A stretch of 64,000 nt of DNA from Patescibacteria group bacterium. GTDB lineage: Bacteria > Patescibacteriota > Dojkabacteria > J137. The notes beneath the pieces are model-generated. The model was given only the letters and a program-made list of their open reading frames with translations, did not search any database and was not told the origin of the DNA. This document shows, one piece after another, positions 2,507-18,966 of the stretch. Each line of letters starts with the position of its first letter. Positions within the stretch are counted from its first letter, which is position 1. The stretch spans positions 75,569 to 139,568 of the forward strand of contig BOLA01000001.1 of assembly GCA_016861265.1 (NCBI GenBank). Direction: 5' to 3'. The position numbers and the translations under genes were made by a program.

Positions 2507-5500
2507 CTACATTTCAAATTTACCCAATGCTTCTTCGGTTTTTCTCATTGGGAATTCAATAGTAATTTGTTGCTTGTTTTTTACTTCAACTTTAACTAAA
2601 GTTTGGCCTGTGGCACTATTGAATCTTTCATATTTCTTACTTAGTCTATCTGTATCTAATTCATAACCTGCTGCATTAACCTGTAAATGATAGCTTCCTG
2701 GCTCTAGCTTAAATCCAAATCTTCCTTCTTCATCGGTAAGTTGAACATCTATTTGTCTTCCTTGGTTTATATCGAATACTCTTACACTTGCACTCTTTAT
2801 TCTATTAAAGTTAGTACTATCGAACACATAACCCCATTCTCGTTTTCGAGCATTAAGCAGGATTAATACTAGTAATTGAATTAAGTAGACACTTGCTACA
2901 AAGTAGTTAAAGATATTTGGTGTTGTAACTAGTGCAACAACAGAAACTATAAAACCTACAATAACTATAGAATTATTTATTCTAGGTAAGTTTCTCTTTG
3001 CTTTCTCTCTAAATCTTATTAACAAATCCTTAAATGTATTCTTTTTAACTGTATTTCTATTTAATCCAATATTTTTTGCTGCAATTCCTTCGTTTTCGTT
3101 AATTGTTATTTCAAATTTCTCGAAATGGTAATCTGCGTGTTTTACTTCTAGGGTATAGGTACCTTTATTTACTAGGAATCCATATTTACCGTCAAATCCT
3201 GTTACTATTTGCTTCTGAATCTTACCCACCTCATCGTAAATTCTTACTTGAACAAATGGTATTGGTTCTTTACTAACTTCGTCGAACACTACTCCCCAAG
3301 TGCTTTTTCTTCTTCGTTTTCCTATCCATGGGATTGCATAAATTACCATTCCAGGATAAGTAGTTATATTAATAATTCCAGTAGCAATTGTTGTAATAGT
3401 TAATATTACAGGGACTACATTCTCACTAATTAGTTCAACATTTTTGTTTGGATAGTAAGGCAAGTACTTTGCTAGCGGCACTACAACATTCTCCACACAA
3501 GTTCGTTCAACACTAGCACAAATAATCTGATAATACATATCTCGCTTTCCATCCAGATTCGATAAATCAAGAGTAGCGGTATGATTCATTAGTTTTTTAT
3601 CTTCAGAGAATATATAGCTTAGATTCTTTGAATCGTTGCCGTAGTGAATTTTGCAGATTGTTTCTTCGGCAGTGTTAAATCTTATAACGGCTTGACCGTT
3701 AGAATTAAATGCATACGAATTTGCATTATTAATACATTGTCTTGCCTCGCTTACAGGAACAATTTCCCCATTGCCGGTTACGAATGTCCCTTCCTCTGAT
3801 GCGTTTTTACCTGCATTTGAAGTTGCGTTTATTCTAAAAATATATTGAGTATCTGATTGAAGATCATTAATTGTTGTACAGTGATTTTCGACATACTCTG
3901 TTTCCTGCTCTGTGGAATTAGTATATATTTCGGTTGAGGCAATTCCATATTGAATTGTTCCTACAGTAGCAATATTTGTCTTCCAGCATACTCTCTGTGA
4001 TGTTGAACTTAATTGTTCCGTAATTATATTCGTGATTTCTATATCAGCCAGACAGATTAATTGATTAGGATTTTCGGCACAAATATTATTTGGATTAACT
4101 AAAATATTTGTACTTACTGCTTTTAGTAATGTGTTCTGATTATCTTGCACTGTAATAGTATAAATTCCAGATTCAACAAATTTAGCTCCGTTATTAAATA
4201 CTTTCTTTCCTGAATCATCTGTACCAAATGTGTATTCAACTGGCAAGACGGCACTTGCAGAAGTTGAGCTGAAGCCAACTGTACCTTTATAAAAGCCGTC
4301 ATTAGTGTTTTGGGCATTTAGTGCATCTACCGTTAGATCAATAGTATCTCCAATTTTTATACTTGTATTGCTTGGTGTAATCTTTAGGCTCTGAGTAGAA
4401 TTTGCTACGTTTATTATTATGGTATCTGTTAGTGAATCCACAAGAATATCTTTTACTGTTAGGGTAAACTCTCCGGCTTTAGCAAATACTAGCTCATCTT
4501 GGAATTCGTGAACACCGCTATCTTCAATTGTGTATTGATAGTTATTAGGTAGAGTTATATTTGGACTTGCATTAGAGCTAAAGTTTACTGTGCTGAAATA
4601 ATCATCTACAATATTCCCCTCTTCATCTTTTGCAGTAACTTTAACCGTAACTGAGTCACCAACAAGAACTGAAGTAGCCTCACTTTCAAGTTCCAATGTT
4701 GTCGCATCTGATTGAGGTAAAGGCGGATTAACTTTTATTGGTACTGTTGTTGCTGTTAGGGAATTATTATTAACATCGGTTACAGTTACTGTATAAGTTC
4801 CTTCCTGAGTAAATACTAATCCTCCCACAAATTCTCTTAGTCCATTATCGATTAATGTAAATGTGTAGTTTAGAGGAAGAATTGCTTCTTCTGCAGCTGT
4901 TGATGTAAAGGAAACGGTACCTCTATAATAAGTATCAGGCTGACTTAACCCATTTAAACCACTTACTGTTAATGTAATTGGATCTCCTGCATTTACCTCT
5001 GTCAGGTTTGGCACAATGCTTAGACTCTGAATTGAAGGGTTAACCGTTATAACTTCTGTAGTGTCTGTAATGCCTCCGTTCGATGTATCAGTTACAGTTA
5101 TTGTATAAGTACCAACTTGATTGAACACAACATTGTTGAATGTATGTTGTCCGCTATCACCACCGTTAAATGTATAGTTGCCAGGTAAATTTACAGTACC
5201 TCCTGCAGTAGAACCAAATGTAACAGTTCCAGTATAGTTTGGATAAATCTCTGAATATTGATCGAATGCCCTGATTACAAGATTAAGTGATTCACCTTGT
5301 ACTACGGTTGTTTTGCTAGGAGTAATGGTTATATCCTGCATTGCTGCCGGAGGCAGATTAACTGTAATTGTTGCAGTTGTAGCAGTTAGAGAAGTGGATG
5401 CAGTATCACTAACTGTTATTGTATAAGTACCTGCTTGTGTGAATACAACTTGATCAACAAAGGTATGTGTACCATTATCTGCTTCTGCGAAGACATAATT

Positions 5501-8500
5501 ACTTGGCAAACTGCTATTACCGTTAGGAGTATTGCTAAATGTTACCGTTCCTGTATAAGTTGGGTCGTTTTCATTAGAACTATTCTTTGCATTAACCTGA
5601 ACTGTAATTGGTTCACCTACAATTACAGTAGTTTTGTTAGGTATAATTTCTAAACCAACCGTGTTCGATACAACAAAGTCTGCTTGATTACTTGCATTAT
5701 TACCAAATTCAGTCCAAGCACCTAAGACGTTTGTATCCTGATTTAATACTCTAGCTCTCCATTTGTATTCATTTCCAGGAATAAGTCCTTCCACACTTAC
5801 TTCTGAAACTAATGGAATTCCACCCGAGTATTCAAGTTCAGGTGCATTATAAACACCTGCAAAAACAGTATTGCTATAATCAGGTTTAATTTCTCCTCTT
5901 AGTAAATTAGCGGCAGTAAATGTTTCGTTTAATCCTACCACCTCAAATTCTGCTACTAAGGATTGCGGATTACCTACATTTGCTCCTGGATCACTCACAC
6001 TGGCTTTAAGTTTAACAATATTCTCACTTGTTAATCCTCCAACAGGGATATTAGTTTCACCATCAGTCTTATATTGATCTTTAAAAGATGGTGTTGCTGG
6101 AATACTTGTAATTGCGGGATAAGTTCCAACTTGTCCACTTTGACCTCCTACAGATGTTCCATTTGCTATTGTTACAGTCCCTGTTGCTTCACAAGGTCCT
6201 TGAGTATATAGGATCGAGACCCTTCCACCACCACCTCCTCCTCCATCAAATGAATCGTCACCTCCATTACCACCTCGAGCATTTAATGTACCTGTTATAG
6301 AACAGGTTTGTCCTTCTACTAATATCGACCCTCCGGCTCCACCACCTCCTCCAGGAGAGGCTGTTCTTCCATTTTCCCCACTAACGTCAATTGTTCCTTT
6401 TATTAAGACATTACCAGTCCTCGCTCTAATTGCGACTGCACCACCACCGGCTCCCCCTGCTGCACCTGTTCCTGCCCTTCCTCCTCCTGAGCCGATTGTT
6501 AGCGGAGCTCTTTGATTACCATAGAATGTTCCTCCTTGTGCACTTGGGTTAGTTCCGTCTCCCTCACTTTGTCCACCTGAACCTCCGTGTCCGCCTCCAG
6601 CTCCTCCTGATTGACCTATACCATTGCTACCTTTTCCAACCCCACCACCAGATGGGAATCCCAGAGCTTTTGCATTAAAGGTTGCTCCCGTTTCTAAGGT
6701 AAAGTTTCCAGTTAGATAAAAGACAGGTCCTCGACCTCTCTTGTCATTAAATTCAATCCAGGAGTATGTATTTTTATATATATTAATCTCAGTTGCATTT
6801 AAAGCTCTTGGATACATAAATACTTCATCTATTACTCCTACAAAGCCTGTTGAAGAACCTAACCCTCCTTTTCCTATTGAAATCTTTGTAATAGGAAGTG
6901 TGTAATTAGTTTCTAAATTTTGCGAAATAACTTCATTACCATCTACATAGATCTTTCTTACGCCGGTTGGCGCGTCATATGTGGCTACTATATGTCTCCA
7001 TTGATTTTCCGGCAAATAATTACTGCTTCCATAAACCCTAATCTCTGCTAAATTCAAATAATCTGAATTTAGTTTAGTTAACCTAACATATCTAGTATTA
7101 ACTGGGGAGAAATTATATGTACTTGGTCTACCTACAGTTTGTCCTGATAAATTTAATACCTCAGTTTGTTCCCCAGTAAATGCTCCAGTATCCGAAACTT
7201 CAATTTTAAATGCAGTAATTCGAGCTTGGCAACAATCACTTCTATTCCAAATATCTATTTTGCTTATTGTATTAATTGCTCCTAAATCTACTTGTATCCA
7301 TTCGCCAACTCCATTACCAGAAGAATGACATACATTTGATAAGTTACCATCAAAACACACACCACCACCGTTAGCAGCAATATTATTTTGATATACAGAA
7401 CTCATTGTGGCTGATTTTCCTGTAGAAATAACACCTGTTGATAATTTAGATGGCCATTCAAATCTTAAATTACCATTATCATCTATATCTAAACTGCTTG
7501 TTGTTGCAATATTATTAAAATTGATTAACTCTTCAGCATCTGAACTGTTTGCAGTAAACTGTTCTAATTTAGCCCACATACCTACTGTAAAGCTTGTTAC
7601 ATTTAACGTTTCTAAATCAATTTCTGCATAATTACTTCCATTAAGTTCTAAGCCTTTTCCAACCCTTCCTTCCATCGTTCTGTTTGATCCAAAGGAGTTT
7701 AGATGCCTATTATTTCCTGAGGCATCACAGTAATCCCCTCCATTTGCACAATTATCATCATTTTCTTCTTCAAAATTCCAGATAGCTAATGCATCTCCAA
7801 TATTTTCAACATTACCACCTTCAGACAACGTTTCATTGCTTCTTAATGCTAAATGATCTTGTCGCATTGTTGAATAAACGTTTGTACCGATGTAAACATT
7901 GTTAAAGTAATAGTCTCTTGCTTCAAATGGCATAGTTGTACCTCCCGCCCCGGCATTATCTATGTATAGATCTCCTCTTTTGGGATCAACTACACCTTTT
8001 TGTTCAATATAAACGGTTCCTGGACCGCCACCTCCTCCTCTAGCATAAATATAGTTATATACTGGATTACTCCCTAAATTAGTAAAGTAATTTCCATTTG
8101 AATAGTAAAGAGCAACTCTACCTCCCGATGGATACCCTCCACCACAATTATATTGTGCTGTTCCATTCGCTCTTACAATACCTGTTGTGCCAGTAGAATT
8201 TAATGTATTTGTATCTATCCAAATACTTCCACCTGTACCCCCTGTTCTACCGCAACTTCCTCCAACAGATGCACCACCAGCTGAAGTAATAATTCCATTT
8301 AAATTGAATGTATCAGAAACTGTTAGCTTAATTGCTCCTCCCCCATTATTTCCTCCTACATTTCCTGGAGCACCTAAATCTTTAGGTTCAAATATATCTC
8401 CGTATGGCTCACCCCCTCCATTACCGTAACCACCGTAACTCATGTATTTACCTGCAGAAGTTCCACTTCCATATCCTTGGTTATCAGCTGTAATAATACC

Positions 8501-11500
8501 TCCTGTATTTAAATCTATATTTTCGGCTACAACATGAGTTCCATAATCGCCATCAGTTCCACTTACTCCATCATCATAGCTGGTCAGTGTTAACACACCA
8601 TATTGTCCAATAGTAATCTTTCCAAATGTATAAGGAGTATTTTTATCGTGTGCCCATGTTTTTGCTCTTAAAATCATTCCTCCAGGAGAAACATTACCTA
8701 AGGTAAAATCGTCTCCATTAACAAGTTGGATGTCTCCATTAATATCAATATCCATTCCATTAATGAATAACTCATCCTCACCTGTGTATAAGAATGTTCC
8801 TCCAACGGTAAAGTCGGGAGAAGAGTTGTCACCCTTCAATGAAGCACCGCTTGTAACAGTTAATATACTGCCTGTACCTAATAACTCAACATTCCCATAT
8901 CTAGTTAAGGTAATTTGGTTAAATTGATAGTTTCCTGCCTCTAAACCAGCTCTCCAGCTATTGCTTCCAGCGTTGTCTACATACAATTTCGCACCTTGTG
9001 ATTGATCCACTCCTGTTTGCTCTACATAAATAGTTCCTGGACCTCCTCCTCCTCCTCTTGCTTGGATGTAATCAGTAAGATTGCTTGCCCCCATGTTTGT
9101 AAAGTAGTTTCCGGTTTCGTAGTAAATAGCAACTCTGCCACCTGAAGGATAAGCACCACCACAGTTGTATTGTGCTGTTCCATTTGCTCTAATAATACCT
9201 GGAGTTGCATCAGAATTTAGCTCTCCTGCCTCTATCCATATACTACCTCCTGAAGCTCCTGCTCTACCACAACTTCCGCCTACTGATGCACCACCTAAAG
9301 AACTAATAGTTCCATTTACCGTTAATAGATTATTAACTTTTAGTCGAATAGCTCCTCCTCCTCTATTACCGCTCGCTCCCCCAGAAGCACCAAGATCCTT
9401 TGGTTGGTAAACACTTCCATATGGAGTAGCACCAGTAGTACCATATCCTCCGTAGCTCATGTATTTACCTGCAGAAGTGCCTGAGCTATAACCTTGGTTG
9501 TCAGCAGATATAATACCTCCAGATGCAACGTTAATACTATCTGCTGTTAAAAATACTCCATAATCTCCAGTAGTACCTGCAACACCATCATCAAAACTGA
9601 CCATAGTCATTGTTCCGTATTGCCCTACACTAATATCTCCAAACGTATATTGATTAGTATTATCGTGAGCCCATGTTTTTGCTCTTAAAGTTAAACCTCC
9701 TGCAAGAGATGTTCCTAGGTTAAAGTCATCACCATTCTCTAATAATATTTCACCTTGAATATCAATCTTTACTCCATTTATAGATAAAATCTCTTCACCT
9801 GTATATCTAAAGGTTCCTGCTACGGCTAAGTTAGGCGATGTAGTATCTCCTTTTAAGGAAGCTCCATTACTTACTGATAAAATACTATTATTTCCCATTA
9901 CAGTTAAATGGCCATATCTGGTTAAGGAAATCTGATCAAATTCATAACTTCCTTCTACCAAACCCGCAGACCGCCCATTTGCACCTGCATTATCAACATA
10001 TAGCTTAGCACCTTTAACTGGGTCGACCCCCACTCTTTCAACATACACAGTACCAGGACCACCCCCTGAAAGACCTCTTGCTTGAACATAATCAGTAACG
10101 TTGTTACTACCCATATTAGTAAAATAGTTACCGTCGTTATAATAAACAGCAACTCTACCTCCAGAAGGATAAATTCCACTACAATTATATTGAGCATTCC
10201 CATTAGCTCTAATTATACCTGGAGTAGAACCAGATACTAAATTATTAGCATTAATCCAAATACTACCTCCTGTACCTGCTGCTCTTCCACAGCTTCCTGT
10301 TACTGAAGCTCCTCCAACAGAGGAAATTGTTCCATTTACAGTAAGTGTATTACTTACGTTAAGTTTAATTGCACCGCCTCCGTTGTTTCCTCCAACACTA
10401 CCAACTGCTCCTAAATCGGTTGGTTCGTAAACATTTCCATATGGCGCTGCTCCATTTGTCCCATATCCACCATATCCAATACTTCTTTCTGTTGTATAAC
10501 CTTGATTATCAGCTGTTATTAATCCACCTGTTTGAATATTAATATTTTCTGCGTTTAAAGTTACGCCATAGTCATTTGTTGTTCCTGCTACACCATCGTG
10601 CGTACTTACTAAAGTAATTACACCAGAAGTACCTACTGTAATGTTTCCAAATGAATATTGATTATCTTTATTATGAGCCCATGTTTTTGCTCTAAATATA
10701 ATTCCTCCAATTGCACTATTACCTACAGTAAAATCATCGACATTCAATAATGAAATTTCACCCTGAATATCAACATCAATTCCATTGATATATAACTCCT
10801 CTTCACCTGTGTATCTAAAGGTTCCTGCTACACCTAAGTTGGATGATGTTGTATCACCTTTTAGGGACGAACCATTACTTACCGTTAAAATACTGTTATT
10901 ACCTAATACTGTTAAATGTCCGTATCTTGTTAATGTAATTTCATCAAATTCATAACTTCCTTCTACTAAACCTGCTGCCCATCCATCAGAACCTGCATTA
11001 TCTACATAAAGTTTTGCACCTTTTACTGGATCTAGGCCTAATTTTTCAATATAAATTGTCCCTGGCCCTCCTCCAGATAAACCTCTTGCCTGTACAAAAT
11101 TAGTTAGATTTGCACTTCCTATGTTAGTAAAGTAATCACCTCCAGTGTAGTAAATTGCAACTCTTCCTCCAGATGGGTAATGACCGCTACAATTGTATTG
11201 AGCATTACCATTAGCAGAAATAACTCCTGCTCCAGATCCATTTATTTGATATGCTTCTATCCAAACACTTCCTCCTGAACCTGCTGCTCTACCGCAACTA
11301 CCACCTACTGCAGCTCCACCAGTAGAAGAAATTGTTCCGTTTACAGTTAATTCATTTCCAATTACCAAATGCATTGCACCTCCACCTCGATTTCCACCTG
11401 CACTGCCAGACGCTCCTAAGTCCTTTGGTTCATAAACATCTCCATATGGAACTGCCCCAGTTGTACCATAACCTCCATATCCTAAATATTTGCCTGCAGT

Positions 11501-14500
11501 GTTTCCTGAATCATAACCATTATTATCAGCTGAAACTTTCCCATTTGTTGCAACATTTAAATTCATTGCGTTTAAGGTGACTCCATAATCACCACTTGTA
11601 CCACTTACACCGTCATCGTGACTAATAAGATTTAATGTACCTGCTGCATCTACATTAATATCACCAAAGAAGTATTGATTATTATTATTATGTGCCCATG
11701 TTTTTGCACGCAGTGTTAAAGCTCCAATAAGATTATTTCCAATTCTAATATCATCAACTAAATCTAATAATATTTCGCCTCTTATATCAACATTAACTCC
11801 ATTAATTTCTAGAGTATCTGCTCCCGTATAATGAAATGTTCCTTCTGTAGATAAAGTAGGTGATGTTGTATCACCTTTTAGAGTAGTACTTATAGGAACC
11901 TGCAACTCACTATTTTGTCCCATTATATTTAAATGACCGTATCTAGTAAGTTTAATTTCACTGAATTGGTAAAGACCTTCAACTAAAGCAGCTGAACCAG
12001 AATTAGAATTATTATTATCTACATACAACTTAGCTCCTTTTGATGCATCTACACCGACCTGCTCTATATAAACCGTTCCAGCAGCACCTCCACCACCCCT
12101 TGTTTGTATAACATCTAGTAACGAACTTCCTGCATTTGTTATGTAATTACCACTAGAATAATAAATTGCAATTCTACCTCCTGATGGATAAGATCCACCG
12201 CAATTGTAAAGAGAAGCACCATTAGCTGTAATTAAACCGTTTCCATTGAACACATCTGTTTGAATCCAAACACTTCCTCCTGAACCTGCTGCAGCTCCGC
12301 AACTTGGACTGTTTGGATTATTACCATTCGCTGAAATTGCTCCTAAGATATCAGTTGTACCACCAACAACTAATTTAATAGCACCTCCACCGGCATTGCC
12401 ACTTCCACCTGAAGCACCTAAATTATTTGGCTCATATACGCTTCCATAAGGAGTACCTCCTGTTGTACCATATCCCCCATAGGAAATTGAACCATAGATT
12501 GTTCCTGCTGTATAACCTCTACCATTTGAAACAATAGAACTAGTGGCTTCCACTGTTAGATTATCTGTGAGTATAGTTACGCCATAATCATCAACTATCT
12601 GATTATTACCATTGTTATATGGAATCAAAGTTAAAACGGAATCATCTTGAACAATTATATTTACACCTCTACAATCAAAAATTCCCTGATTATTTATATC
12701 AGCCGTCCATGTTTGATCTACATCAATAATTCCATCTAAATCAGGACAGCTTCCAAGTGTATCCACTATTGCAATAGAATTTGAAATTCCTGTTGCAGCT
12801 CCATCAGTAATTTTAATCTTTATACTTTCAACTACACTATGATTAAAATTATTGAATATTAGTACACCATTATTTTCTAGTTCAAAGGTTATTGTAGATG
12901 GAGATAAAACTCCACTGGAAGCACTTTCGTCTAGAGCTTTAATTGCCTCCACTGTTGGATTTCCTACATAATCACTTTTTATATTATCGTATTGATCGTA
13001 CGCTGTTACAGAGACAGGTCCAAAATCTTGTGCTGTTATTCCAAACTGGGGTGCAGTCACAGCAAATCTGCTTATTGCATCAGCTGTACCTGTAAAATTA
13101 AAATCTATCGGATTACCGGTCAAGCCGGAGGCACCCGCCCGTACTATATTAGTACCTGTTTTAGTACCCAATCTATATTGTCTTGAACTATAACCATCAC
13201 TATCTGTTATAGCATTGCCACCTGTAAAATGTCCTCCAACAGCACTATTAATCACTGACCAGTTTACTGTGTAGTCTGGAACAGGAAAGCCATCTCCATC
13301 AATTACTCTCACGATTAGTGAAGTAGAAAGATCGCTATTAACAACAGCTGTTTGATTGTTACCACCAATAAGTTGTATTACCGATGGATTGCCACTAACT
13401 CTAAAGTCCCTTGCAAATTCATCGTTAGATCCAAAACTGACCCAATTGCTGTATCCGCCTTTGCTATCTCTAACCCTAACTTGCCAATGAAATTCTTTTG
13501 AACGTTCAAGATTACTAACTAAAATTTTCCCACAATTAGTGGTACCCACAGTACAAATTTGTGGATTAGAAAGAGGAGAACCCTGAATATGGGTTGGGAC
13601 ATTGGTAAAATTTTCGTTTAATGGTCTTATTTCTAACTGCAATAATAGTGTCTCTCCAGCATCTACATCCGAAAGTTCACTAACAAAGTACACAGAAGTT
13701 TCAGTAGTAGTTCCACCTATAGGAATTTCGGTAGATTGATTAGATTTGAATTGTTTTAGAACCGAAGGAGAATTTGGTCTACAAGTTGGACCTATAATTG
13801 TACCAATACCACCATCTTGTGAATTACTCGTAACACCAGGATTAACATTTGCATTACCGGTAAATCCATTGCTAGTATTGCATAACATTACTAATCTTCC
13901 ACCACCACCTCCTCCACCCTGATACTGGACTTCGGCTCCAATTCCTCCTTTTGCTTCAACAATACCATTTCCACTAAAACTATTTGCTTCTATCCAAATA
14001 CTTCCTCCTGATCCTCCTCCTCCAGATATTGTTCCTTGTGCCTGACCATCTAAACCGTTAGCGCTTATTCTTCCATTCACAACCAAGGCTCCAGTTGCAA
14101 CAATTTTAATTGCACCACCACCTGCGCCTCCTAATGCATTTCCACTTTCTTGAGAAGTTCCAACCAAGGTAATACCATTTATTCTTGGTGTGTCTTCAAG
14201 ATTACTTCCAGAATTTAAGATGGCTCGAATTTTCCAGTACTTAAAATATCCATTTATTTCTGTAGTATTTCTTTGTGAATTATCATTTATATTATAGGTG
14301 CCTCCATTTTGATAATACGAGCCACTTGAGGGGTAAACAGCTTCCTCTCCAGAGAAAGTTCCAGTCTGTGAACCTAGAATCTGAAATTTAGGTGTTATAT
14401 TATTACTACCATCTAATACCCAATCAACAGTTATGCTTGAAATCAGAATTGACTGTGAGTTACCATCACCAACTGTCTCGGATAACCAAGTTTGCTCACC

Positions 14501-16525
14501 ACTGGCAAAAACCAATCCAGGAGTAAACTCATATATACTCTGAATATTTTCAGTAGTAAGTAAACTATTATAGACTCGTATATCGTCTATGGAGCCAGAA
14601 AAATAATTAAGTGCTTCCGAAGGACCTGCTCTGCCTGCAATAAGATCCATTACACCTAAAGTACCTGTTGTTGACATTACGGCCTCCTGCTCACCATCTA
14701 TAAAAAGTTTTATTTCACCTGTAGAGTCAAATTGTGCTGCAAAATGATGCCATTGATTATCAGTTACCACCGTTGTGGAATAAATGCTATCTCCATTTTC
14801 AGTTCCTGAAGGTGCTCTATATAAAAACCTTAATTTGTTTGCATTTGTTAAATCATTTGATGCAACAACATCTACAGAAACGCCTGGTAAATTTGTATTT
14901 GTAAATGTTATTACACTTTGATCTTGAGTAACAGGCTGTGTTTTAAACCAACTAGAAATTGTAAAACTTTCGTCATTAAAATCTAGAGACCCAAGATTGG
15001 CGTAGTCATCAACACCGTCAAAACTTATACAGCCTTTATTTTTGCAATTCTCTTCGGAGAGTATTGCAGGATCGTCATTGCTAACCGAACTGTCTGCACC
15101 CAATGTACCATCTGTTGCCCCCTCTACATTGTTACTTAAGTCTTGTCCACTTTGTTCATCTAATTTAAAGTAGGAAATTAAGCCATCAGTCACTACATCT
15201 GCTTTTTCTTCGGATTTTAATTCAAGCCCCGTAATGCTTCCAGTTTGCAACCCTGAGCTGAAACTTGTACCAGAAGCGTTAAATCTTTCATTAGTTAACC
15301 AATCATATTGAAAAGACTCTGTAACACCACCACCGTTTCCTCCTGCACTACCAAGTGTTGTAGGAGCTTCATTATTTCCATAAGCAATACCTCCAAAACC
15401 AGAAGGATTAGAAGCGTCTTCAACTCCCTGACCTCCAGCTCCTCCGTGTCCTCCTCCAGCTCCTCCGGATTGTCCGGCAGAATCTCCTCCTCTACCTACA
15501 GATTCAGATTCAAGAACTGTATAACCTTTTCCATCTGCTGTAATTTTACCGCCTTCTTGTACAGTCAAATTATTTACTAATAAAGTAACTCCCCAATCTC
15601 CGTTAGTGTAGTTGTTTTGTATAACATGTCTGTCCATTACAATTTCACCTGTTGGTCCCACAATAATATCTAGTCCTGCACAATCAATAATTCCGTCTAT
15701 GTTGTCGGGAGAAATTATCACCTGATTATTAATAACTGTAGGAGCACCAGGTAAAGGACATGCAGTTTGTGCAACAAGAAAATTTAGATTTGAATTCAAT
15801 ACAGCAAAACCACTAATAATAAATATGCCTACCTGAAACAGTAGTATTAGAAAACCTACTATTAGTGTTGTAAGTGTTGGGTAATATCTTACTCTGTAAG
15901 CCGTAAGGTATTTGTTACCCGATTCATCTACTTCTTTAATCTTGCCTCCACTATACAAATAAAAGAATGTGAGTACAAAACTTAATATGACTTGATAAGA
16001 CAGCCATATTACCCAACGTAATGGATTTAATATGCTGTTTGTTTTACTTATCTTATGCATTATTACATCGGATTTATTACTTGTTCTTAACGCTATTGTT
16101 GCAAGCGAGTTTTGAACACTGTGTCTGTGTGTAGGTTTACTCTCTATGGAAAAAGTGTAAGACAAATAAGTAACGAATTTTTCAACAAAATTAGCATCGT
16201 CTTTATTAAACATCATCAGTGAAGGATCGTTTACTTTTGGAAAATTTTCATCTTCATGTAATAGTGCAATTTTTCTTGCATTCGAAAAACCATTCTTACT
16301 TTTTAGTGAGTGTACAAGCTCAGTTCCTGCGAATTCTGGAAGTGTAGAATCTACTACTATTAAATCTGGATTGACTAATTCTATTAGACCTAAACCTTTA
16401 ACACCATTGTCAGATGTTGTGATTAATACATTCTTAAGGGTACGCTTTAATAAGCTTTTCAGTATTTCTCTAATTGTAAAATCATCATCGAGTATTAGAA
16501 TTTTTATCTTTTCATTATTTGTCAT
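2507..16525 (-). CDS. Giant (4672 aa) multidomain membrane/surface protein with an N-terminal response-regulator receiver (REC) domain fused to TM helices and a huge repeat-rich ectodomain
   Basis: Single uninterrupted ORF. Residues 1-~120 are a CheY-like REC domain (KILILDDD ... VVDSTLPEFAGTEL ... K). TM helices follow at ~aa 165-235. The ectodomain has Gly-rich beta-helix-like segments (GGAGGGHGGAGGQG), LamG/concanavalin-like domains (FDGVDDYANLGS...WHHFAAQFD; NGSNYAEI...WRHIVATYD) and an F5/8 discoidin domain (GEWIQVDLGAINTISKIDIWNRSDCCQARI, DNA ~7050-7450). It also has five ~340-aa tandem repeats and about five Ig-like ~105-aa repeats (GTVTFS...LP.NY.F...G.H.F..V.F...G.YT.TV.D). The C-terminus has two carboxypeptidase-regulatory-like domains interleaved with TM helices. 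Confidence 0.85.
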   Translation of the reverse strand: MTNNEKIKILILDDDFTIREILKSLLKRTLKNVLITTSDNGVKGLGLIELVNPDLIVVDSTLPEFAGTELVHSLKSKNGFSNARKIALLHEDENFPKVNDPSLMMFNKDDANFVEKFVTYLSYTFSIESKPTHRHSVQNSLATIALRTSNKSDVIMHKISKTNSILNPLRWVIWLSYQVILSFVLTFFYLYSGGKIKEVDESGNKYLTAYRVRYYPTLTTLIVGFLILLFQVGIFIISGFAVLNSNLNFLVAQTACPLPGAPTVINNQVIISPDNIDGIIDCAGLDIIVGPTGEIVMDRHVIQNNYTNGDWGVTLLVNNLTVQEGGKITADGKGYTVLESESVGRGGDSAGQSGGAGGGHGGAGGQGVEDASNPSGFGGIAYGNNEAPTTLGSAGGNGGGVTESFQYDWLTNERFNASGTSFSSGLQTGSITGLELKSEEKADVVTDGLISYFKLDEQSGQDLSNNVEGATDGTLGADSSVSNDDPAILSEENCKNKGCISFDGVDDYANLGSLDFNDESFTISSWFKTQPVTQDQSVITFTNTNLPGVSVDVVASNDLTNANKLRFLYRAPSGTENGDSIYSTTVVTDNQWHHFAAQFDSTGEIKLFIDGEQEAVMSTTGTLGVMDLIAGRAGPSEALNYFSGSIDDIRVYNSLLTTENIQSIYEFTPGLVFASGEQTWLSETVGDGNSQSILISSITVDWVLDGSNNITPKFQILGSQTGTFSGEEAVYPSSGSYYQNGGTYNINDNSQRNTTEINGYFKYWKIRAILNSGSNLEDTPRINGITLVGTSQESGNALGGAGGGAIKIVATGALVVNGRISANGLDGQAQGTISGGGGSGGSIWIEANSFSGNGIVEAKGGIGAEVQYQGGGGGGGRLVMLCNTSNGFTGNANVNPGVTSNSQDGGIGTIIGPTCRPNSPSVLKQFKSNQSTEIPIGGTTTETSVYFVSELSDVDAGETLLLQLEIRPLNENFTNVPTHIQGSPLSNPQICTVGTTNCGKILVSNLERSKEFHWQVRVRDSKGGYSNWVSFGSNDEFARDFRVSGNPSVIQLIGGNNQTAVVNSDLSTSLIVRVIDGDGFPVPDYTVNWSVINSAVGGHFTGGNAITDSDGYSSRQYRLGTKTGTNIVRAGASGLTGNPIDFNFTGTADAISRFAVTAPQFGITAQDFGPVSVTAYDQYDNIKSDYVGNPTVEAIKALDESASSGVLSPSTITFELENNGVLIFNNFNHSVVESIKIKITDGAATGISNSIAIVDTLGSCPDLDGIIDVDQTWTADINNQGIFDCRGVNIIVQDDSVLTLIPYNNGNNQIVDDYGVTILTDNLTVEATSSIVSNGRGYTAGTIYGSISYGGYGTTGGTPYGSVYEPNNLGASGGSGNAGGGAIKLVVGGTTDILGAISANGNNPNSPSCGAAAGSGGSVWIQTDVFNGNGLITANGASLYNCGGSYPSGGRIAIYYSSGNYITNAGSSLLDVIQTRGGGGAAGTVYIEQVGVDASKGAKLYVDNNNSNSGSAALVEGLYQFSEIKLTRYGHLNIMGQNSELQVPISTTLKGDTTSPTLSTEGTFHYTGADTLEINGVNVDIRGEILLDLVDDIRIGNNLIGALTLRAKTWAHNNNNQYFFGDINVDAAGTLNLISHDDGVSGTSGDYGVTLNAMNLNVATNGKVSADNNGYDSGNTAGKYLGYGGYGTTGAVPYGDVYEPKDLGASGSAGGNRGGGAMHLVIGNELTVNGTISSTGGAAVGGSCGRAAGSGGSVWIEAYQINGSGAGVISANGNAQYNCSGHYPSGGRVAIYYTGGDYFTNIGSANLTNFVQARGLSGGGPGTIYIEKLGLDPVKGAKLYVDNAGSDGWAAGLVEGSYEFDEITLTRYGHLTVLGNNSILTVSNGSSLKGDTTSSNLGVAGTFRYTGEEELYINGIDVDIQGEISLLNVDDFTVGNSAIGGIIFRAKTWAHNKDNQYSFGNITVGTSGVITLVSTHDGVAGTTNDYGVTLNAENINIQTGGLITADNQGYTTERSIGYGGYGTNGAAPYGNVYEPTDLGAVGSVGGNNGGGAIKLNVSNTLTVNGTISSVGGASVTGSCGRAAGTGGSIWINANNLVSGSTPGIIRANGNAQYNCSGIYPSGGRVAVYYNDGNYFTNMGSNNVTDYVQARGLSGGGPGTVYVERVGVDPVKGAKLYVDNAGANGRSAGLVEGSYEFDQISLTRYGHLTVMGNNSILSVSNGASLKGDTTSPNLAVAGTFRYTGEEILSINGVKIDIQGEILLENGDDFNLGTSLAGGLTLRAKTWAHDNTNQYTFGDISVGQYGTMTMVSFDDGVAGTTGDYGVFLTADSINVASGGIISADNQGYSSGTSAGKYMSYGGYGTTGATPYGSVYQPKDLGASGGASGNRGGGAIRLKVNNLLTVNGTISSLGGASVGGSCGRAGASGGSIWIEAGELNSDATPGIIRANGTAQYNCGGAYPSGGRVAIYYETGNYFTNMGASNLTDYIQARGGGGGPGTIYVEQTGVDQSQGAKLYVDNAGSNSWRAGLEAGNYQFNQITLTRYGNVELLGTGSILTVTSGASLKGDNSSPDFTVGGTFLYTGEDELFINGMDIDINGDIQLVNGDDFTLGNVSPGGMILRAKTWAHDKNTPYTFGKITIGQYGVLTLTSYDDGVSGTDGDYGTHVVAENIDLNTGGIITADNQGYGSGTSAGKYMSYGGYGNGGGEPYGDIFEPKDLGAPGNVGGNNGGGAIKLTVSDTFNLNGIITSAGGASVGGSCGRTGGTGGSIWIDTNTLNSTGTTGIVRANGTAQYNCGGGYPSGGRVALYYSNGNYFTNLGSNPVYNYIYARGGGGGPGTVYIEQKGVVDPKRGDLYIDNAGAGGTTMPFEARDYYFNNVYIGTNVYSTMRQDHLALRSNETLSEGGNVENIGDALAIWNFEEENDDNCANGGDYCDASGNNRHLNSFGSNRTMEGRVGKGLELNGSNYAEIDLETLNVTSFTVGMWAKLEQFTANSSDAEELINFNNIATTSSLDIDDNGNLRFEWPSKLSTGVISTGKSATMSSVYQNNIAANGGGVCFDGNLSNVCHSSGNGVGEWIQVDLGAINTISKIDIWNRSDCCQARITAFKIEVSDTGAFTGEQTEVLNLSGQTVGRPSTYNFSPVNTRYVRLTKLNSDYLNLAEIRVYGSSNYLPENQWRHIVATYDAPTGVRKIYVDGNEVISQNLETNYTLPITKISIGKGGLGSSTGFVGVIDEVFMYPRALNATEINIYKNTYSWIEFNDKRGRGPVFYLTGNFTLETGATFNAKALGFPSGGGVGKGSNGIGQSGGAGGGHGGSGGQSEGDGTNPSAQGGTFYGNQRAPLTIGSGGGRAGTGAAGGAGGGAVAIRARTGNVLIKGTIDVSGENGRTASPGGGGGAGGSILVEGQTCSITGTLNARGGNGGDDSFDGGGGGGGRVSILYTQGPCEATGTVTIANGTSVGGQSGQVGTYPAITSIPATPSFKDQYKTDGETNIPVGGLTSENIVKLKASVSDPGANVGNPQSLVAEFEVVGLNETFTAANLLRGEIKPDYSNTVFAGVYNAPELEYSGGIPLVSEVSVEGLIPGNEYKWRARVLNQDTNVLGAWTEFGNNASNQADFVVSNTVGLEIIPNKTTVIVGEPITVQVNAKNSSNENDPTYTGTVTFSNTPNGNSSLPSNYVFAEADNGTHTFVDQVVFTQAGTYTITVSDTASTSLTATTATITVNLPPAAMQDITITPSKTTVVQGESLNLVIRAFDQYSEIYPNYTGTVTFGSTAGGTVNLPGNYTFNGGDSGQHTFNNVVFNQVGTYTITVTDTSNGGITDTTEVITVNPSIQSLSIVPNLTEVNAGDPITLTVSGLNGLSQPDTYYRGTVSFTSTAAEEAILPLNYTFTLIDNGLREFVGGLVFTQEGTYTVTVTDVNNNSLTATTVPIKVNPPLPQSDATTLELESEATSVLVGDSVTVKVTAKDEEGNIVDDYFSTVNFSSNASPNITLPNNYQYTIEDSGVHEFQDELVFAKAGEFTLTVKDILVDSLTDTIIINVANSTQSLKITPSNTSIKIGDTIDLTVDALNAQNTNDGFYKGTVGFSSTSASAVLPVEYTFGTDDSGKKVFNNGAKFVESGIYTITVQDNQNTLLKAVSTNILVNPNNICAENPNQLICLADIEITNIITEQLSSTSQRVCWKTNIATVGTIQYGIASTEIYTNSTEQETEYVENHCTTINDLQSDTQYIFRINATSNAGKNASEEGTFVTGNGEIVPVSEARQCINNANSYAFNSNGQAVIRFNTAEETICKIHYGNDSKNLSYIFSEDKKLMNHTATLDLSNLDGKRDMYYQIICASVERTCVENVVVPLAKYLPYYPNKNVELISENVVPVILTITTIATGIINITTYPGMVIYAIPWIGKRRRKSTWGVVFDEVSKEPIPFVQVRIYDEVGKIQKQIVTGFDGKYGFLVNKGTYTLEVKHADYHFEKFEITINENEGIAAKNIGLNRNTVKKNTFKDLLIRFREKAKRNLPRINNSIVIVGFIVSVVALVTTPNIFNYFVASVYLIQLLVLILLNARKREWGYVFDSTNFNRIKSASVRVFDINQGRQIDVQLTDEEGRFGFKLEPGSYHLQVNAAGYELDTDRLSKKYERFNSATGQTLVKVEVKNKQQITIEFPMRKTEEALGKFEM
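7650..12700 (-). repeat. Intragenic tandem repeat in the 4672-aa gene: five copies, period ~1020 bp (~340 aa)
   Basis: The conserved block SCGRAAGSGGS(V/I)WI recurs at DNA ~8236, 9263, 10283, 11290 and 12300. Counting residues from KTWAHNNNN to the next KTWAHNKDN gives 339-340. Antisense P-rich pseudo-ORFs at 8187-8429 and 9165-9410 mirror the Gly-rich coding. Confidence 0.8.
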
Positions 16526-17882: not shown

Positions 17883-18074
17883 CGCAAGATGTCTTTCTTT
17901 AGTATCCGTTGAAAGTCCTTTAGGTACTGCCCAAGATTTTAGGACACCCTCTACTTCAATCCTAAAATCATAGTGTAGTCTTGTAGCATTGTGTTTTTGA
18001 ATTACAAAAATTGGTAACTTACTATTAGAAGATTCGACTTTTCCTTCAGGTTCTTTAGTGTTATCAAAGTTTCT
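17883..18074 (-). other. In-frame 5' extension encoding the conserved LigD phosphoesterase N-terminus (RNFDNTKEPEG...FVIQKHNATRLHYDFRIEVEGVLKSWAVPKG) with no ATG/GTG/TTG start codon. It is immediately preceded by the Ku TAA stop
   Basis: Manual translation of the minus strand. The 64 sense codons between the Ku stop (18075-18077) and the LigD Met-Met contain the catalytic His/Asp/Arg block (QKH..RLHYDFR). Confidence 0.75.
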
Positions 18075-18845
18075 TTATGCTTCAATTTCAGCAAGGCTTT
18101 TCTGCAGTTGTTCCATAACATCACTTACATCGGTAACTTTTGGCGCTGACTTTGGTGTTTTTATTGGTTTTTTATGAATCTTGGCATCAATTATTTTCTT
18201 AAGTCCATTTAAATAATCATCTTGATAGTCAGATGGGTCAAACTGCTCGGCCATTCCTTCAATTAACTTCTGTGCCATATCAACTTCTTTATCGGATAAT
18301 TTAATATTTTTTGGCAGGTTTAATTTTGAAGTTGGCTTTATTTCGGATTCGTATCGTAACTGATTAAGGATTAGCATATTACCTTCAGGTTTAATAATAC
18401 ACAAATGCTCTCTGTTTCTTAAGACAAATTCCGCAACCCCTACTTTATTTGATTTCTTAAGCGCTTTAATTAATAACAAATATGTTTTTTCTGCACCCTT
18501 AGCAGGTTCTAAATAATATGGCTTATCAAAGAATATCGGATCAATATCTTCTTTATCTACAAAACATGATATTTCAATACTATTACTTCTGTGTATATCT
18601 ACCTTATCAAAGTCCTCATCTGTTAATACTACATAATCTCCCTTCTGGTATTCATACCCTTTAACTACTTCCTTCCATGGAACCTCTTTTCCTGTTTCAG
18701 AATCTATTCGTGCATATCTTATTGGCGACTTATCCTTTTTGCTGAGCATATCTAGATCTAGTTGCACACTTTGTGTTGCTGTATATAAGTTTACAGGAAT
18801 ATATATTAATCCAAAGCTTATGCCACCGGTCCACATTGCTCTCAT
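18075..18845 (-). CDS. ku: Ku protein (bacterial NHEJ DNA-end-binding protein)
   Basis: Hallmark N-terminus MRAMWTGGISFGLIYIPVNLYTAT. Ku core of 256 aa. Immediately upstream of, and in frame with, LigD. Confidence 0.9.
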   Translation of the reverse strand: MRAMWTGGISFGLIYIPVNLYTATQSVQLDLDMLSKKDKSPIRYARIDSETGKEVPWKEVVKGYEYQKGDYVVLTDEDFDKVDIHRSNSIEISCFVDKEDIDPIFFDKPYYLEPAKGAEKTYLLLIKALKKSNKVGVAEFVLRNREHLCIIKPEGNMLILNQLRYESEIKPTSKLNLPKNIKLSDKEVDMAQKLIEGMAEQFDPSDYQDDYLNGLKKIIDAKIHKKPIKTPKSAPKVTDVSDVMEQLQKSLAEIEA

Positions 18846-18930
18846 AGTTGTACTTAAAAGATATTACCTAATATATTAAACATAAATACGCGAATCGTAA
18901 AATGGTTGTAAAATATTAGTAAAAAATTCC

Positions 18931-18960: not shown

Positions 18961-18966
18961 GTGAGA

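What the first reader, a model, noticed from the sequence alone, without database searches (positions are those of the whole stretch)
15820..16525. Response-regulator receiver domain fused in-frame to a 4672-aa transmembrane giant surface protein
The first ~120 codons of the giant ORF are a textbook CheY-like REC domain (ILILDDD acidic pocket, VVDSTLP phospho-Asp position, conserved downstream T/K).

They are followed by two to three TM helices and then more than 4400 aa of beta-helix, LamG, discoidin, Ig-like and carboxypeptidase-regulatory-like ectodomains.

No histidine kinase is in the window. A cytoplasmic phospho-receiver wired directly to a giant extracellular adhesin-like protein implies that surface-structure behaviour (conformation, secretion, attachment) could be gated by phosphorylation. 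That is an unusual architecture.
Basis: seen in the sequence. Interest (0 to 1): 0.6.

Follow-up and report, generated by a model that had tools for sequence, protein, structure and literature searches.

The report
Membrane-anchored receiver on giant surface protein
A 4672-residue cell-surface protein of a tiny, probably symbiotic (Dojkabacteria-like) bacterium really does begin with a cytoplasmic two-component "receiver" switch joined to its membrane anchor. The same 250-residue head sits on well over a hundred related surface proteins, so these cells may control their surface proteins directly rather than through gene expression.

Summary
Window 2507-16525 (minus strand) is one uninterrupted 4672-aa ORF. 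Its first ~125 residues are a receiver (REC) domain: it passes Pfam's threshold and the AlphaFold model matches solved receivers. Asp13, Asp14, Asp59 and Lys108 are present, but the Thr position is His90 and helix alpha4 is missing.

It is not a fusion artefact. A 76%-identical 4656-aa orthologue keeps the REC. 135 of the 150 best database clusters carry the same REC plus helical/transmembrane head, on proteins up to 4258 aa. Named members are all Candidatus Dojkabacteria, often with several copies per genome.

Charge distribution, hydrophobicity, Cys placement and relatives with ordinary signal peptides all support one topology. REC is inside, one firm membrane crossing lies at aa 217-243, and a ~4100-aa disulfide-rich ectodomain is outside. 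A C-terminal membrane module places two transthyretin-like domains back in the cytoplasm, so they are not ectodomains as first read.

The window has no histidine kinase. Phospho-control of surface display is plausible but untested. The rivals are a phosphorylation-independent docking domain and a leader cleaved after Ala252. I found no description of this architecture. Verdict: a new variant of the response-regulator theme, interest about 0.62.

The parts
2507..16525 (-). Whole gene: 4672-aa REC / membrane anchor / giant ectodomain / C-terminal membrane module protein
   Evidence: Single ORF with no stops. A 76%-identical 4656-aa orthologue, P0154, aligns end to end. The orthologous locus L031 has the same downstream Obg and OGG genes.
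16151..16507 (-). Receiver (REC, CheY-like) domain, aa 7-125, lacking helix alpha4
   Evidence: Pfam Response_reg scores 37.3 bits against a cut-off of 30.2. AlphaFold secondary structure shows the receiver fold without alpha4. Foldseek matches solved receivers at target-normalised TM-score 0.75-0.83. Against the orthologue, pN is 0.167 and pS 0.751.
16349..16351 (-). Codon of Asp59, the predicted phospho-acceptor at the end of beta3
   Evidence: Read directly from the sequence. Asp in 158 of 160 family sequences. Asp13 is D 140 / E 14, Asp14 is D 131 / N 17, and Lys108 is K in 154 of 160.
16043..16129 (-). Amphipathic linker helix, aa 133-161, with the conserved N150-x-x-D153 motif
   Evidence: AlphaFold helix 133-161. 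Conservation of the motif. Carries 5 Lys/Arg.
15950..16024 (-). First hydrophobic helix ('TM1'), aa 168-192. Marginally hydrophobic, with conserved W174, Q/E178 and S182. Probably interfacial or re-entrant rather than a full crossing.
   Evidence: Kyte-Doolittle 1.89 in this protein. The family median is 1.80, and the median summed apparent insertion energy (Hessa scale) is +2.0 kcal/mol. AlphaFold helix 168-192.
15878..15949 (-). Basic juxtamembrane loop, aa 193-216, ending in the family motif R-V-R-Y-Y-P; predicted cytoplasmic
   Evidence: Family mean of 5.3 Lys+Arg in about 25 residues, and 5 in this protein. R211, Y215 and P216 are nearly invariant.
15797..15877 (-). Second hydrophobic helix ('TM2'), aa 217-243. 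The one firm membrane crossing (signal-anchor-like), with conserved Q231 and G238-G239.
   Evidence: Kyte-Doolittle 2.61 and Hessa sum -1.9 in this protein. All 129 family sequences score at least 1.6. Part of the AlphaFold helix 201-254.
15767..15781 (-). Conserved small-residue motif after TM2 (family S-V-F-A, here F-L-V-A, aa 249-252, plus Gln253): possible signal-peptidase-I-like site, or the end of the anchor
   Evidence: Ala252 occurs in 132 of 144 non-gap sequences. Position 250 is mostly V, I or L. Sequence conservation ends here.
3419..15763 (-). Ectodomain, aa 255-4369: Gly-rich repeats, LamG x2, discoidin, pentaxin-like and FN3-like domains. It contains all 36 Cys of the protein, apparently in pairs.
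   Evidence: Pfam hits. Cys positions, and 5.0% Lys+Arg against 12-14% in the terminal modules.
7751..12823 (-). Five tandem repeat units of ~335-340 aa inside the ectodomain (aa ~1235-2925)
   Evidence: Self-BLASTP gives 50-69% identity between units. The Cys pairs recur with the same period.
3335..3418 (-). C-module transmembrane helix, aa 4370-4397, followed by the residues KRRRK
   Evidence: Hydropathy and sequence. AlphaFold helix.
3062..3295 (-). First transthyretin/CarboxypepD_reg-like beta-sandwich, aa 4411-4488; predicted cytoplasmic
   Evidence: Pfam CarbopepD_reg_2. AlphaFold model. Foldseek matches the carboxypeptidase D transthyretin-like domain at rmsd 1.8 A.
2849..3037 (-). Transmembrane hairpin, aa 4497-4559, followed by the residues RKRE
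   Evidence: Hydropathy. AlphaFold helices 147-184 and 188-209 of the C-module model.
2540..2833 (-). Second transthyretin-like beta-sandwich, aa 4565-4662; predicted cytoplasmic
   Evidence: Pfam reports two CarbopepD_reg_2 stretches in the protein, plus a NOMO_5th hit at aa 4578-4618. AlphaFold model.

Best explanation
The gene encodes one polypeptide that belongs to a family apparently specific to Dojkabacteria. In this family a conserved ~250-residue head takes the place of an ordinary signal peptide on surface proteins of 233 to more than 4600 aa. The head consists of a receiver domain, an amphipathic helix, a marginally hydrophobic helix, a basic loop and one true transmembrane helix.

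Shown or strongly inferred:
- The receiver and the basic loop are cytoplasmic.
- Helix aa 217-243 crosses the membrane once, from inside to outside.
- The ~4100-aa disulfide-rich region is outside.
- In this protein a C-terminal module re-enters the membrane and places two transthyretin-like domains in the cytoplasm, so the ectodomain is tethered at both ends.

Inferred mechanism:
- Asp59 is phosphorylated, either by a distant orphan histidine kinase or by a small phosphodonor such as acetyl phosphate.
- With alpha4 missing, the usual alpha4-beta5-alpha5 output face is remodelled. The change would be passed through the tightly packed linker and juxtamembrane helices to the transmembrane helix.
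- This would alter self-association, retention or presentation of the attached surface protein. It is inside-out, post-translational control.
- Several paralogues per genome share the same head while kinases are scarce, so one input could switch a whole set of surface proteins together.
For: Architecture real and conserved:
- The orthologue P0154 is 76% identical over the full length, REC included.
- 135 of the 150 best representative clusters have both the REC and the helical/transmembrane module at the N terminus. 72 of them are at least 1000 aa and 33 at least 2000 aa.
- In 508 kb of window and loci DNA the two modules were found together in one reading frame in all 35 cases.
- Tandem paralogues and several copies per genome occur.

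Phospho-chemistry retained:
- Asp59 158/160, Lys108 154/160, Asp13 D 140 / E 14, Asp14 D 131 / N 17.
- pN is far below pS across the REC.

Coupling of receiver to anchor:
- The AlphaFold model of aa 1-275 has pTM 0.81, which I read as a defined packing of the receiver against the helices.
- The linker, loop and transmembrane helices carry conserved polar residues.

Topology:
- The loop at 192-216 averages 5.3 Lys+Arg, against 1.05 in the 13 residues after TM2.
- TM2 is strongly hydrophobic and TM1 marginal.
- All 36 Cys lie in aa 256-4343.
- KRRRK and RKRE follow the C-terminal transmembrane helices.
- Relatives with a single C-terminal transmembrane helix end in basic tails.
- C-module homologues in other candidate-phyla-radiation (CPR) phyla start with ordinary signal peptides.

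Kinase availability:
- A PAS histidine kinase lies 4.3 kb upstream of one family member, in locus L030.
- CPR bacteria have the lowest kinase frequencies (bioRxiv 10.1101/2023.02.01.526704).
Against: - No experiment or direct test of phosphorylation exists.
- The Thr/Ser switch position is His90 here and variable across the family. The aromatic switch position is aliphatic. alpha4 is missing.
- There is no kinase in the window, and only one in 508 kb of related loci.
- This protein has lost several loop residues that are otherwise conserved in the family: D197, N199, Q202 and D206 are K, V, S and Y here.
- The conserved V-x-A motif after TM2 could be a cleavage site.
Confidence: 0.45

Rival explanations
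1. Phosphorylation-independent receiver. The REC is a degenerate, structural cytoplasmic domain that docks the anchor to a common partner or drives oligomerisation. That partner could be the cytoskeleton, the export machinery, the C-terminal transthyretin-like domains or a nucleotide ligand. The domain never receives a phosphoryl group.
For: - His replaces the Thr/Ser switch residue, alpha4 is absent and the aromatic switch residue is aliphatic.
- Pfam and NCBIfam models match only the first 60% of the domain.
- Kinases are rare in the window and loci and in CPR bacteria generally.
- All paralogues conserve a cytoplasmic loop motif that looks like a shared binding surface.
Against: - The acidic pocket, Asp59 and Lys108 are conserved at 82-99% across 160 sequences that share only ~30% identity. 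That is hard to explain without metal or phosphoryl chemistry.
- The D-x-T-L-P motif is almost invariant.
- At least one Dojkabacteria genome has a kinase near a family member.
Confidence: 0.25
2. Cleaved leader. The REC/transmembrane head acts as an oversized, possibly regulated, export signal that signal peptidase I removes after Ala252. The mature giant protein would then be held only by its C-terminal module (or released), and the receiver would remain behind as a separate small membrane protein.
For: - Ala252 is conserved (132/144) with V, I or L at position -3. Family conservation stops exactly there.
- C-module homologues in other CPR phyla use ordinary cleavable-looking signal peptides in the same place.
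- In locus L005 the gene is naturally split into a head protein and a signal-peptide-bearing protein with the C-module.
- Stand-alone 'mini' heads of 233-430 aa exist.
Against: - The hydrophobic core is 22-27 residues long, typical of an uncleaved anchor.
- AlphaFold continues the helix through residue 254.
- The conserved Gly-Gly lies 13-14 residues before the putative site.
- Family members with no C-terminal transmembrane helix, such as L017, L018 and L020, would lose all anchorage.
Confidence: 0.2
3. Artefact. A small response-regulator gene and a giant gene were joined by a sequencing or assembly error or a lost stop codon, or translation really starts at an internal codon after the REC.
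For: None found. Met156 precedes the first hydrophobic helix and could in principle act as a start.
Against: - The same fusion is present in an independent assembly of the orthologue and in 135 database clusters from many sources.
- REC and the transmembrane module lie in one frame in 35 of 35 cases.
- Position 156 is not conserved as Met, and no start candidate after the transmembrane region is followed by a signal sequence.
Confidence: 0.02
4. Different topology. Either both hydrophobic helices cross the membrane and the 4100-aa region is cytoplasmic, or the REC is translocated to the outside.
For: Two hydrophobic helices are present. Conserved polar residues in both (Q/E178 and Q231) could pair inside the membrane.
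Against: - Positive-inside counts.
- TM1 has marginal hydrophobicity.
- All Cys are in the giant region, which has a low Lys+Arg content.
- The domain types are typical of extracellular proteins.
- Basic residues follow the C-terminal transmembrane helices.
- Relatives bear signal peptides.
- There is no signal sequence ahead of a 165-residue folded REC.
Confidence: 0.04

Closest known systems
Canonical two-component response regulators (CheY, OmpR, NarL and similar; Pfam PF00072)
   Same: Same receiver fold, acidic pocket (Asp13/Asp14), acceptor Asp59 in a D-x-x-[LM]-P context, and Lys108. The receiver is N-terminal with the 'output' C-terminal to it.
   Different: - The output is not a DNA-binding, enzymatic or soluble protein-binding domain. 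It is a membrane anchor plus a giant extracellular protein.
- alpha4 is missing and the Thr switch residue is His.
- There is no adjacent kinase.
LapD-LapG-LapA inside-out control of a giant adhesin (PMC3032553)
   Same: A cytoplasmic signalling domain attached to a transmembrane segment decides whether a giant surface adhesin stays displayed. Control is post-translational and runs from inside to outside.
   Different: LapD senses c-di-GMP, is a separate protein from the adhesin, and works through a periplasmic protease in diderm bacteria with type I secretion. Here the sensor-like domain is part of the surface protein itself and is a receiver domain.
PorX, the receiver-domain regulator of the type IX secretion system (PMC5005315; bioRxiv 10.1101/2024.05.15.594396)
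   Same: A receiver domain that acts on a secretion or surface-display machine by protein contacts rather than on transcription. PorX chains were the lowest-E-value Foldseek hits to the head model.
   Different: PorX is soluble, carries an alkaline-phosphatase-like domain and has a cognate kinase, PorY. The global superposition is poor (query-normalised TM-score 0.28), so only the receiver is truly shared.
ToxR/CadC-type transmembrane transcription regulators (PMC10269533)
   Same: A single-pass protein with an N-terminal cytoplasmic signalling domain, one transmembrane helix and an extracytoplasmic domain, with no cleaved signal peptide.
   Different: In those proteins the cytoplasmic domain binds DNA and information flows from outside to inside. 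The external domain is small.
Giant proteins of Omnitrophota and Actinobacteriota that contain CheY-like receiver domains (bioRxiv 10.1101/2023.11.21.568195)
   Same: Receiver domains have been listed among the domains found in giant bacterial proteins.
   Different: That report lists the domain in passing among many cytoplasmic-type enzyme domains. It does not describe an N-terminal receiver plus conserved transmembrane head that replaces a signal peptide, nor a family with that design.
Serine-rich-repeat adhesins exported by the accessory Sec system with ~90-residue signal peptides (from my own knowledge, not checked here)
   Same: Very large Gram-positive-type surface proteins whose N-terminal export signal carries a long extra region that directs special handling.
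   Different: Those extensions are unstructured and cleaved, and they depend on SecA2/SecY2. Here the extension is a folded 165-residue signalling domain.

Membership tests
Receiver (REC/CheY-like) domain superfamily | Sequence match above the curated family threshold | tested here: met
   Pfam PF00072 scores 37.3 bits against a cut-off of 30.2, E=3.3e-9. Only profile positions 1-68 of 111 are matched.
Receiver (REC/CheY-like) domain superfamily | Five-stranded parallel (beta-alpha)5 fold | tested here: inconclusive
   The AlphaFold model has all five strands and helices 1, 2, 3 and 5. alpha4 is replaced by a 12-residue loop. The overall fold matches solved receivers at target-normalised TM-score 0.75-0.83.
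Receiver (REC/CheY-like) domain superfamily | Acidic pocket (two Asp/Glu after beta1) and acceptor Asp at the end of beta3 | tested here: met
   Asp13, Asp14 and Asp59 are present. Across the family Asp59 is D in 158 of 160 sequences.
Receiver (REC/CheY-like) domain superfamily | Conserved Thr/Ser at the end of beta4 (the switch residue) | tested here: not met
   His90 in this protein. Family distribution: H 62, T 23, S 14, others 61.
Receiver (REC/CheY-like) domain superfamily | Conserved Lys at the end of beta5 | tested here: met
   Lys108 is present, and is K in 154 of 160 family sequences.
Receiver (REC/CheY-like) domain superfamily | Actual phosphorylation of the acceptor Asp | not testable with these tools
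   This needs biochemistry.
Classical two-component system (paired kinase and regulator) | A cognate histidine kinase encoded next to the regulator | tested here: not met
   A six-frame search with a HisKA+HATPase_c profile finds no kinase in the 64-kb window. It finds only one in 30 related loci, 4.3 kb from the family gene in L030.
Sortase-anchored LPXTG surface proteins | C-terminal LPXTG-type motif followed by a hydrophobic segment and a basic tail | tested here: not met
   There is no LPXTG-like motif near the C terminus; the only loose match is LPPAA at aa 3724. The C terminus is instead a three-helix membrane module with two beta-sandwich domains. A sortase gene is present at 23299-24129.
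Sec-type cleavable signal peptide | Short basic n-region, a 7-20-residue hydrophobic core, and small residues at -1 and -3 in an extended c-region | tested here: inconclusive
   Basic residues precede TM2, and a V/I/L-x-A motif follows it. However, the n-region is 216 residues long and the hydrophobic core 22-27 residues, and the site is modelled as helical.
REC / transmembrane-head surface proteins of Dojkabacteria (family defined here) | N-terminal REC followed in the same ORF by the conserved module: N-x-x-D helix, W-x3-[QE]-x3-S helix, R-V-R-Y-Y-P-T loop and a Q-containing transmembrane helix ending in G-G ... A | tested here: met
   Family HMMs score the window protein at E=1.2e-34 for the REC part and E=1.2e-35 for the transmembrane module. 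This protein is a divergent member that lacks the D197, N199, Q202 and D206 loop residues.

The most novel reading that the evidence does not exclude
The REC/transmembrane head is a phosphorylation-gated signal-anchor shared by a whole repertoire of paralogous giant surface proteins. One kinase, or the cell's acetyl-phosphate level, could then switch the export, clustering or retention of the entire adhesive surface of an ultra-small, host-dependent bacterium without any transcriptional regulator. That would be a direct two-component-to-surface 'inside-out' pathway, not known in bacteria.
Probability: 0.2. Interest if true: 0.85.

Novelty: new variant of a known kind. Interest (0 to 1): 0.62.

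Why it matters
[quoted passage not shown] They are thought to live attached to other cells, and how they control attachment is unknown.

This family puts the commonest bacterial signalling switch onto the membrane anchor of the cell's largest surface proteins. It does so repeatedly within a genome. That suggests a short, transcription-free route from a cytoplasmic signal to surface behaviour.

The idea is testable: the head is small, folds confidently in silico and has an obvious point mutant (D59A). It would also add a new class of 'output' to the response-regulator catalogue. A practical benefit is that hundreds of database entries now labelled only 'response regulator' or 'CheY-like chemotaxis protein' could be annotated properly.

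Tried and rejected
- **Word-indexed homologue search** with the 270-aa head alone returned nothing. The window protein itself is not in the gene-position collection.
- **Genome-collection scan** with the single protein returned nothing. Alignment A1 was too diverse to give search patterns. A tighter 7-sequence alignment worked.
- **Mean-field direct-coupling analysis** on 160 sequences was dominated by noise. The top pairs were mostly implausible, so I did not use it for topology.
- **The helical/transmembrane module alone** (aa 128-256) has no significant Pfam or PDB sequence match.
- **Promoter and terminator scans** around the start and end of the gene gave no more than chance.
- **Tandem Repeats Finder** saw no DNA-level tandem repeats in the gene. 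The ~338-aa repeats show up only at protein level.
- **dN/dS** could not be computed meaningfully for the REC because synonymous sites are saturated (pS about 0.75). Only the pN/pS contrast is reported.
- **Literature searches** found no description of this architecture. Searched terms included Dojkabacteria with response regulators, CPR giant proteins with receiver domains, and membrane-anchored response regulators.
- **Rejected readings:** LPXTG/sortase anchoring of this protein, an internal start at Met156, and a lipobox at Cys256, where position -3 is Gln (read from the translation).

Full report
**1. What is in the sequence**

The minus strand of window 2507-16525 is a single 4672-codon ORF. 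It begins at the first start codon after an upstream stop and has no internal stops. The finding's coordinates, 15820-16525, correspond to residues 1-235.

Pfam finds a Response_reg domain at residues 9-78 with E=3.3e-9 and 37.3 bits, above the curated cut-off of 30.2. Only the first 68 of 111 profile positions are matched. NCBIfam receiver models likewise stop near residue 78.

An AlphaFold2 model of residues 1-275, built with a 54-sequence alignment, is confident (mean pLDDT 87.3, pTM 0.81). It shows five strands with helices 1, 2, 3 and 5. The segment between beta4 and beta5 is a 12-residue loop rather than helix alpha4. Foldseek superposes the model on solved receivers with target-normalised TM-scores of 0.75-0.83 and rmsd 2.6-3.0 A over about 125 residues.

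The Thr/Ser switch position is His90, and the aromatic switch position is aliphatic. So the receiver is real, but it is not quite 'textbook'.

**2. Not an artefact: a large family**

The word-indexed protein search and an exact look-up did not find the window protein itself. An exhaustive HMMER search of 1.84 billion cluster representatives with residues 1-270 gave 210 hits below 1e-10.

Using family HMMs, 135 of the best 150 clusters carry both the receiver and the following helical/transmembrane module at their N terminus. 72 are at least 1000 aa, 33 are at least 2000 aa, and the longest is 4258 aa.

One cluster contains a 4656-aa NCBI protein, P0154, that is 76% identical to the window protein from residue 1 to the end. 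Its locus, L031 from assembly GCA_964414295.1, has the same downstream Obg and OGG genes but different upstream genes. Between the two orthologues the REC region has pN 0.167 against a saturated pS of 0.751, which indicates purifying selection.

A more distant member, P0017 (WKZ31380.1, 4258 aa), shares only the N-terminal ~250 residues and the C-terminal ~270 residues. The region between is unrelated.

Every source name that gives an organism says Candidatus Dojkabacteria. Source labels are 'response regulator', 'hypothetical protein' or 'tandem-95 repeat protein', and other entries are labelled only 'CheY-like chemotaxis protein'. A pattern scan of species-representative genomes returned 30 loci. 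About half are titled Dojkabacteria. Most of the others are automatically labelled 'uncultured Candidatus Saccharibacteria' bins, which I suspect but did not verify are mislabelled. Several genomes contribute more than one locus.

In the 508 kb of window plus loci, the REC and the transmembrane module occur together in one reading frame in 35 of 35 cases, sometimes as tandem paralogues. Complete ORFs range from 233 to 2575 aa. The head is therefore a unit that is attached to ectodomains of very different size.

The frameshift or misassembly explanation, and an internal start at the non-conserved Met156, can be set aside.

**3. Conservation within the head**

Across 160 heads that share only about 30% identity, the key receiver residues are conserved as follows:
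- Asp59: 158/160
- Lys108: 154/160
- Asp13: D 140, E 14
- Asp14: D 131, N 17
- the motif D-[TS]-T-L-P-K-Y-S-G-x-E is almost invariant
- the Thr position: H 62, T 23, S 14, with the rest scattered
- the beta4-beta5 connector: 11-12 residues in nearly all members, so alpha4 is missing family-wide

After the receiver come three conserved elements:
- an amphipathic helix (133-161) with an N-x-x-D motif;
- a moderately hydrophobic helix (168-192) with conserved W174, Q/E178 and S182;
- one long helix (201-254). Its first part is a basic, highly conserved loop-like stretch (D-x-N-I-x-Q-x3-D ... R-V-R-Y-Y-P-T). Its middle is a very hydrophobic 27-residue segment with a central Gln and a Gly-Gly. It ends in S-V-F-A.

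The window protein and its orthologue are divergent members. The window protein has lost four of the conserved loop residues. This helical/transmembrane module has no Pfam or PDB sequence match.

**4. Topology**

Several independent observations agree.
- **Hydrophobicity.** The second hydrophobic helix is always strongly hydrophobic (Kyte-Doolittle median 2.53, median Hessa sum -1.7 kcal/mol). The first is marginal (median 1.80, +2.0 kcal/mol) and carries on average about one Lys or Arg. The Hessa scale values were entered from memory.
- **Charge around the N-terminal helices.** The stretch between the two helices averages 5.3 Lys+Arg and the stretch before the first averages 3.2. The 13 residues after the second have 1.05.
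- **Cysteines and composition.** All 36 Cys lie between residues 256 and 4343, in evident pairs. There are none in the receiver, the anchor or the C-terminal module. The middle region has 5% Lys+Arg against 12-14% at the ends.
- **Charge at the C terminus.** The C-terminal transmembrane helix (4370-4397) is followed by KRRRK, and the later hairpin (4497-4559) by RKRE.
- **Relatives with a single C-terminal helix** end in Arg/Lys-rich tails.
- **C-module homologues in other CPR phyla** (Nomurabacteria, Peregrinibacteria, Levybacteria) are 420-560-aa proteins that begin with ordinary signal peptides. The segment preceding the C-module is therefore exported.

The coherent reading has these parts:
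- The receiver, the linker and the basic loop are cytoplasmic.
- One true crossing lies at 217-243, and a ~4100-aa ectodomain is outside.
- The chain then re-enters the membrane, placing two transthyretin/CarboxypepD_reg-like beta-sandwiches in the cytoplasm.
- The first hydrophobic helix is most likely interfacial or re-entrant, or part of a juxtamembrane bundle.

I could not confirm that last point because model coordinates are not exposed and a coupling analysis was too noisy.

**5. The rest of the protein and the neighbourhood**

Pfam finds LamG x2, discoidin (F5/8 type C), pentaxin-like and FN3-like domains in the ectodomain. It gives no beta-helix family hit for this protein. Five tandem ~338-aa repeats occupy residues ~1235-2925. 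There is no LPXTG motif.

The window has no histidine kinase, either by six-frame HMM search or by domain scans of the ORFs. A generic receiver profile finds no receiver other than the family members in all 508 kb. One PAS histidine kinase lies 4.3 kb upstream of a family member in L030, so the lineage does have kinases. CPR bacteria are reported to have the lowest kinase frequencies (bioRxiv 10.1101/2023.02.01.526704).

**6. How it most likely works**

*Shown:* a conserved cytoplasmic receiver with an intact phospho-acceptor pocket is covalently joined, through a conserved helical module, to the membrane anchor of variable surface proteins.

*Inferred:* the high pTM suggests the receiver packs against the helices. 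Loss of alpha4 remodels the usual output face. A change at Asp59 could then be relayed to the transmembrane helix. It might alter self-association, retention or presentation of the ectodomain. I give this about 0.45.

*Rivals:*
- A phosphorylation-independent docking or oligomerisation domain (0.25). Support comes from His90, the missing alpha4 and the scarcity of kinases.
- A head cleaved after the conserved Ala252 (0.2). Support comes from the V-x-A motif and the signal peptides of C-module relatives. The naturally split gene in L005 also fits. The 22-27-residue hydrophobic core and the helical model argue against it.
- Artefact, or an inverted topology, together no more than about 0.06.

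**7. Comparison with what is known**

The domain is a member of the receiver superfamily by score, fold, acidic pocket and Lys. It fails the Thr/Ser criterion and lacks alpha4. It is not part of a classical kinase-regulator gene pair.

Functionally the nearest analogues are:
- LapD/LapG/LapA inside-out control of a giant adhesin (PMC3032553);
- PorX acting on the type IX secretion machine (PMC5005315; bioRxiv 10.1101/2024.05.15.594396);
- in mirror image, ToxR-like transmembrane regulators (PMC10269533).

CheY-like domains have been listed in passing among the domains of giant proteins of other phyla (bioRxiv 10.1101/2023.11.21.568195). I found no description of an N-terminal receiver plus transmembrane head replacing a signal peptide. 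Full-text searches for phrases such as 'membrane-anchored response regulator' returned nothing.

**8. Verdict**

This is a new variant of a known kind, namely a response-regulator-type receiver with a surface-protein 'output'. It defines a sizeable, unannotated Dojkabacteria family. Interest is 0.62.

Noticed in passing
window 2540-3418 (aa 4370-4662 of the giant protein); proteins P0175-P0197: The C-terminal module is a transmembrane helix, a transthyretin-like domain, a transmembrane hairpin and a second transthyretin-like domain. It forms a family of its own. In other CPR phyla (Nomurabacteria, Peregrinibacteria, Levybacteria) it occurs in 420-560-aa proteins with ordinary signal peptides and no receiver. 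Its function is unknown, and cytoplasmic transthyretin-like domains flanked by membrane helices are themselves odd.
   Followed up: partly
L005 9950-17287: In one complete chromosome (OZ246402.1) the family gene is split. A 623-aa REC/transmembrane-head ORF ends one base before a 1821-aa ORF that has its own signal peptide and the C-module. This suggests that head and body can work as separate polypeptides.
   Followed up: partly
L030 2-1846 and 6184-13542: A membrane-bound PAS histidine kinase lies 4.3 kb upstream of a 2452-aa family member. It is the only kinase found in 508 kb of related DNA and is a candidate partner.
   Followed up: partly
window 7751-12823 (aa ~1235-2925): There are five tandem ~335-340-aa repeat units (50-69% identical), each with one Cys pair. 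This part is the most conserved between orthologues (88-90% identity). Tandem Repeats Finder found no repeats at DNA level in the gene.
   Followed up: partly
window 31365-50621 (-), 30257-31294 (-), 25752-30257 (-), 25089-25739 (-): A second giant ORF of 6418 aa has a TTG start as listed. It carries IPT/TIG x5, ALK/LTK-type glycine-rich domains x5, LamG and DUF2341, and has no receiver. Downstream on the same strand are a 345-aa single-pass protein, a 1501-aa Ig-domain protein and a TPR protein. This looks like a surface-protein operon. GC rises to 0.45 at 44-48 kb.
   Followed up: partly
window 59697-62054 (+): Six small ORFs of 72-98 aa lie in a row between a glycosyltransferase-4 gene and pyruvate kinase. 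Several end in ...AAA or ...ATA. They may be a small paralogous gene array. No Rfam family reached its gathering score in the window apart from two tRNAs.
   Followed up: no
window 16596-20070: Immediately upstream of the giant gene is a non-homologous end-joining pair: a LigD-like ATP-dependent ligase (16596-17882) and Ku (18075-18845). Next comes an Ada-like AraC/methyltransferase fusion (19243-20070). The orthologous locus L031 has glycosyltransferases there instead, so this upstream context is not conserved.
   Followed up: partly
window 23299-24129 (+): A sortase gene is present, yet the giant protein has no LPXTG-type signal. Its substrates in this window were not identified.
   Followed up: no
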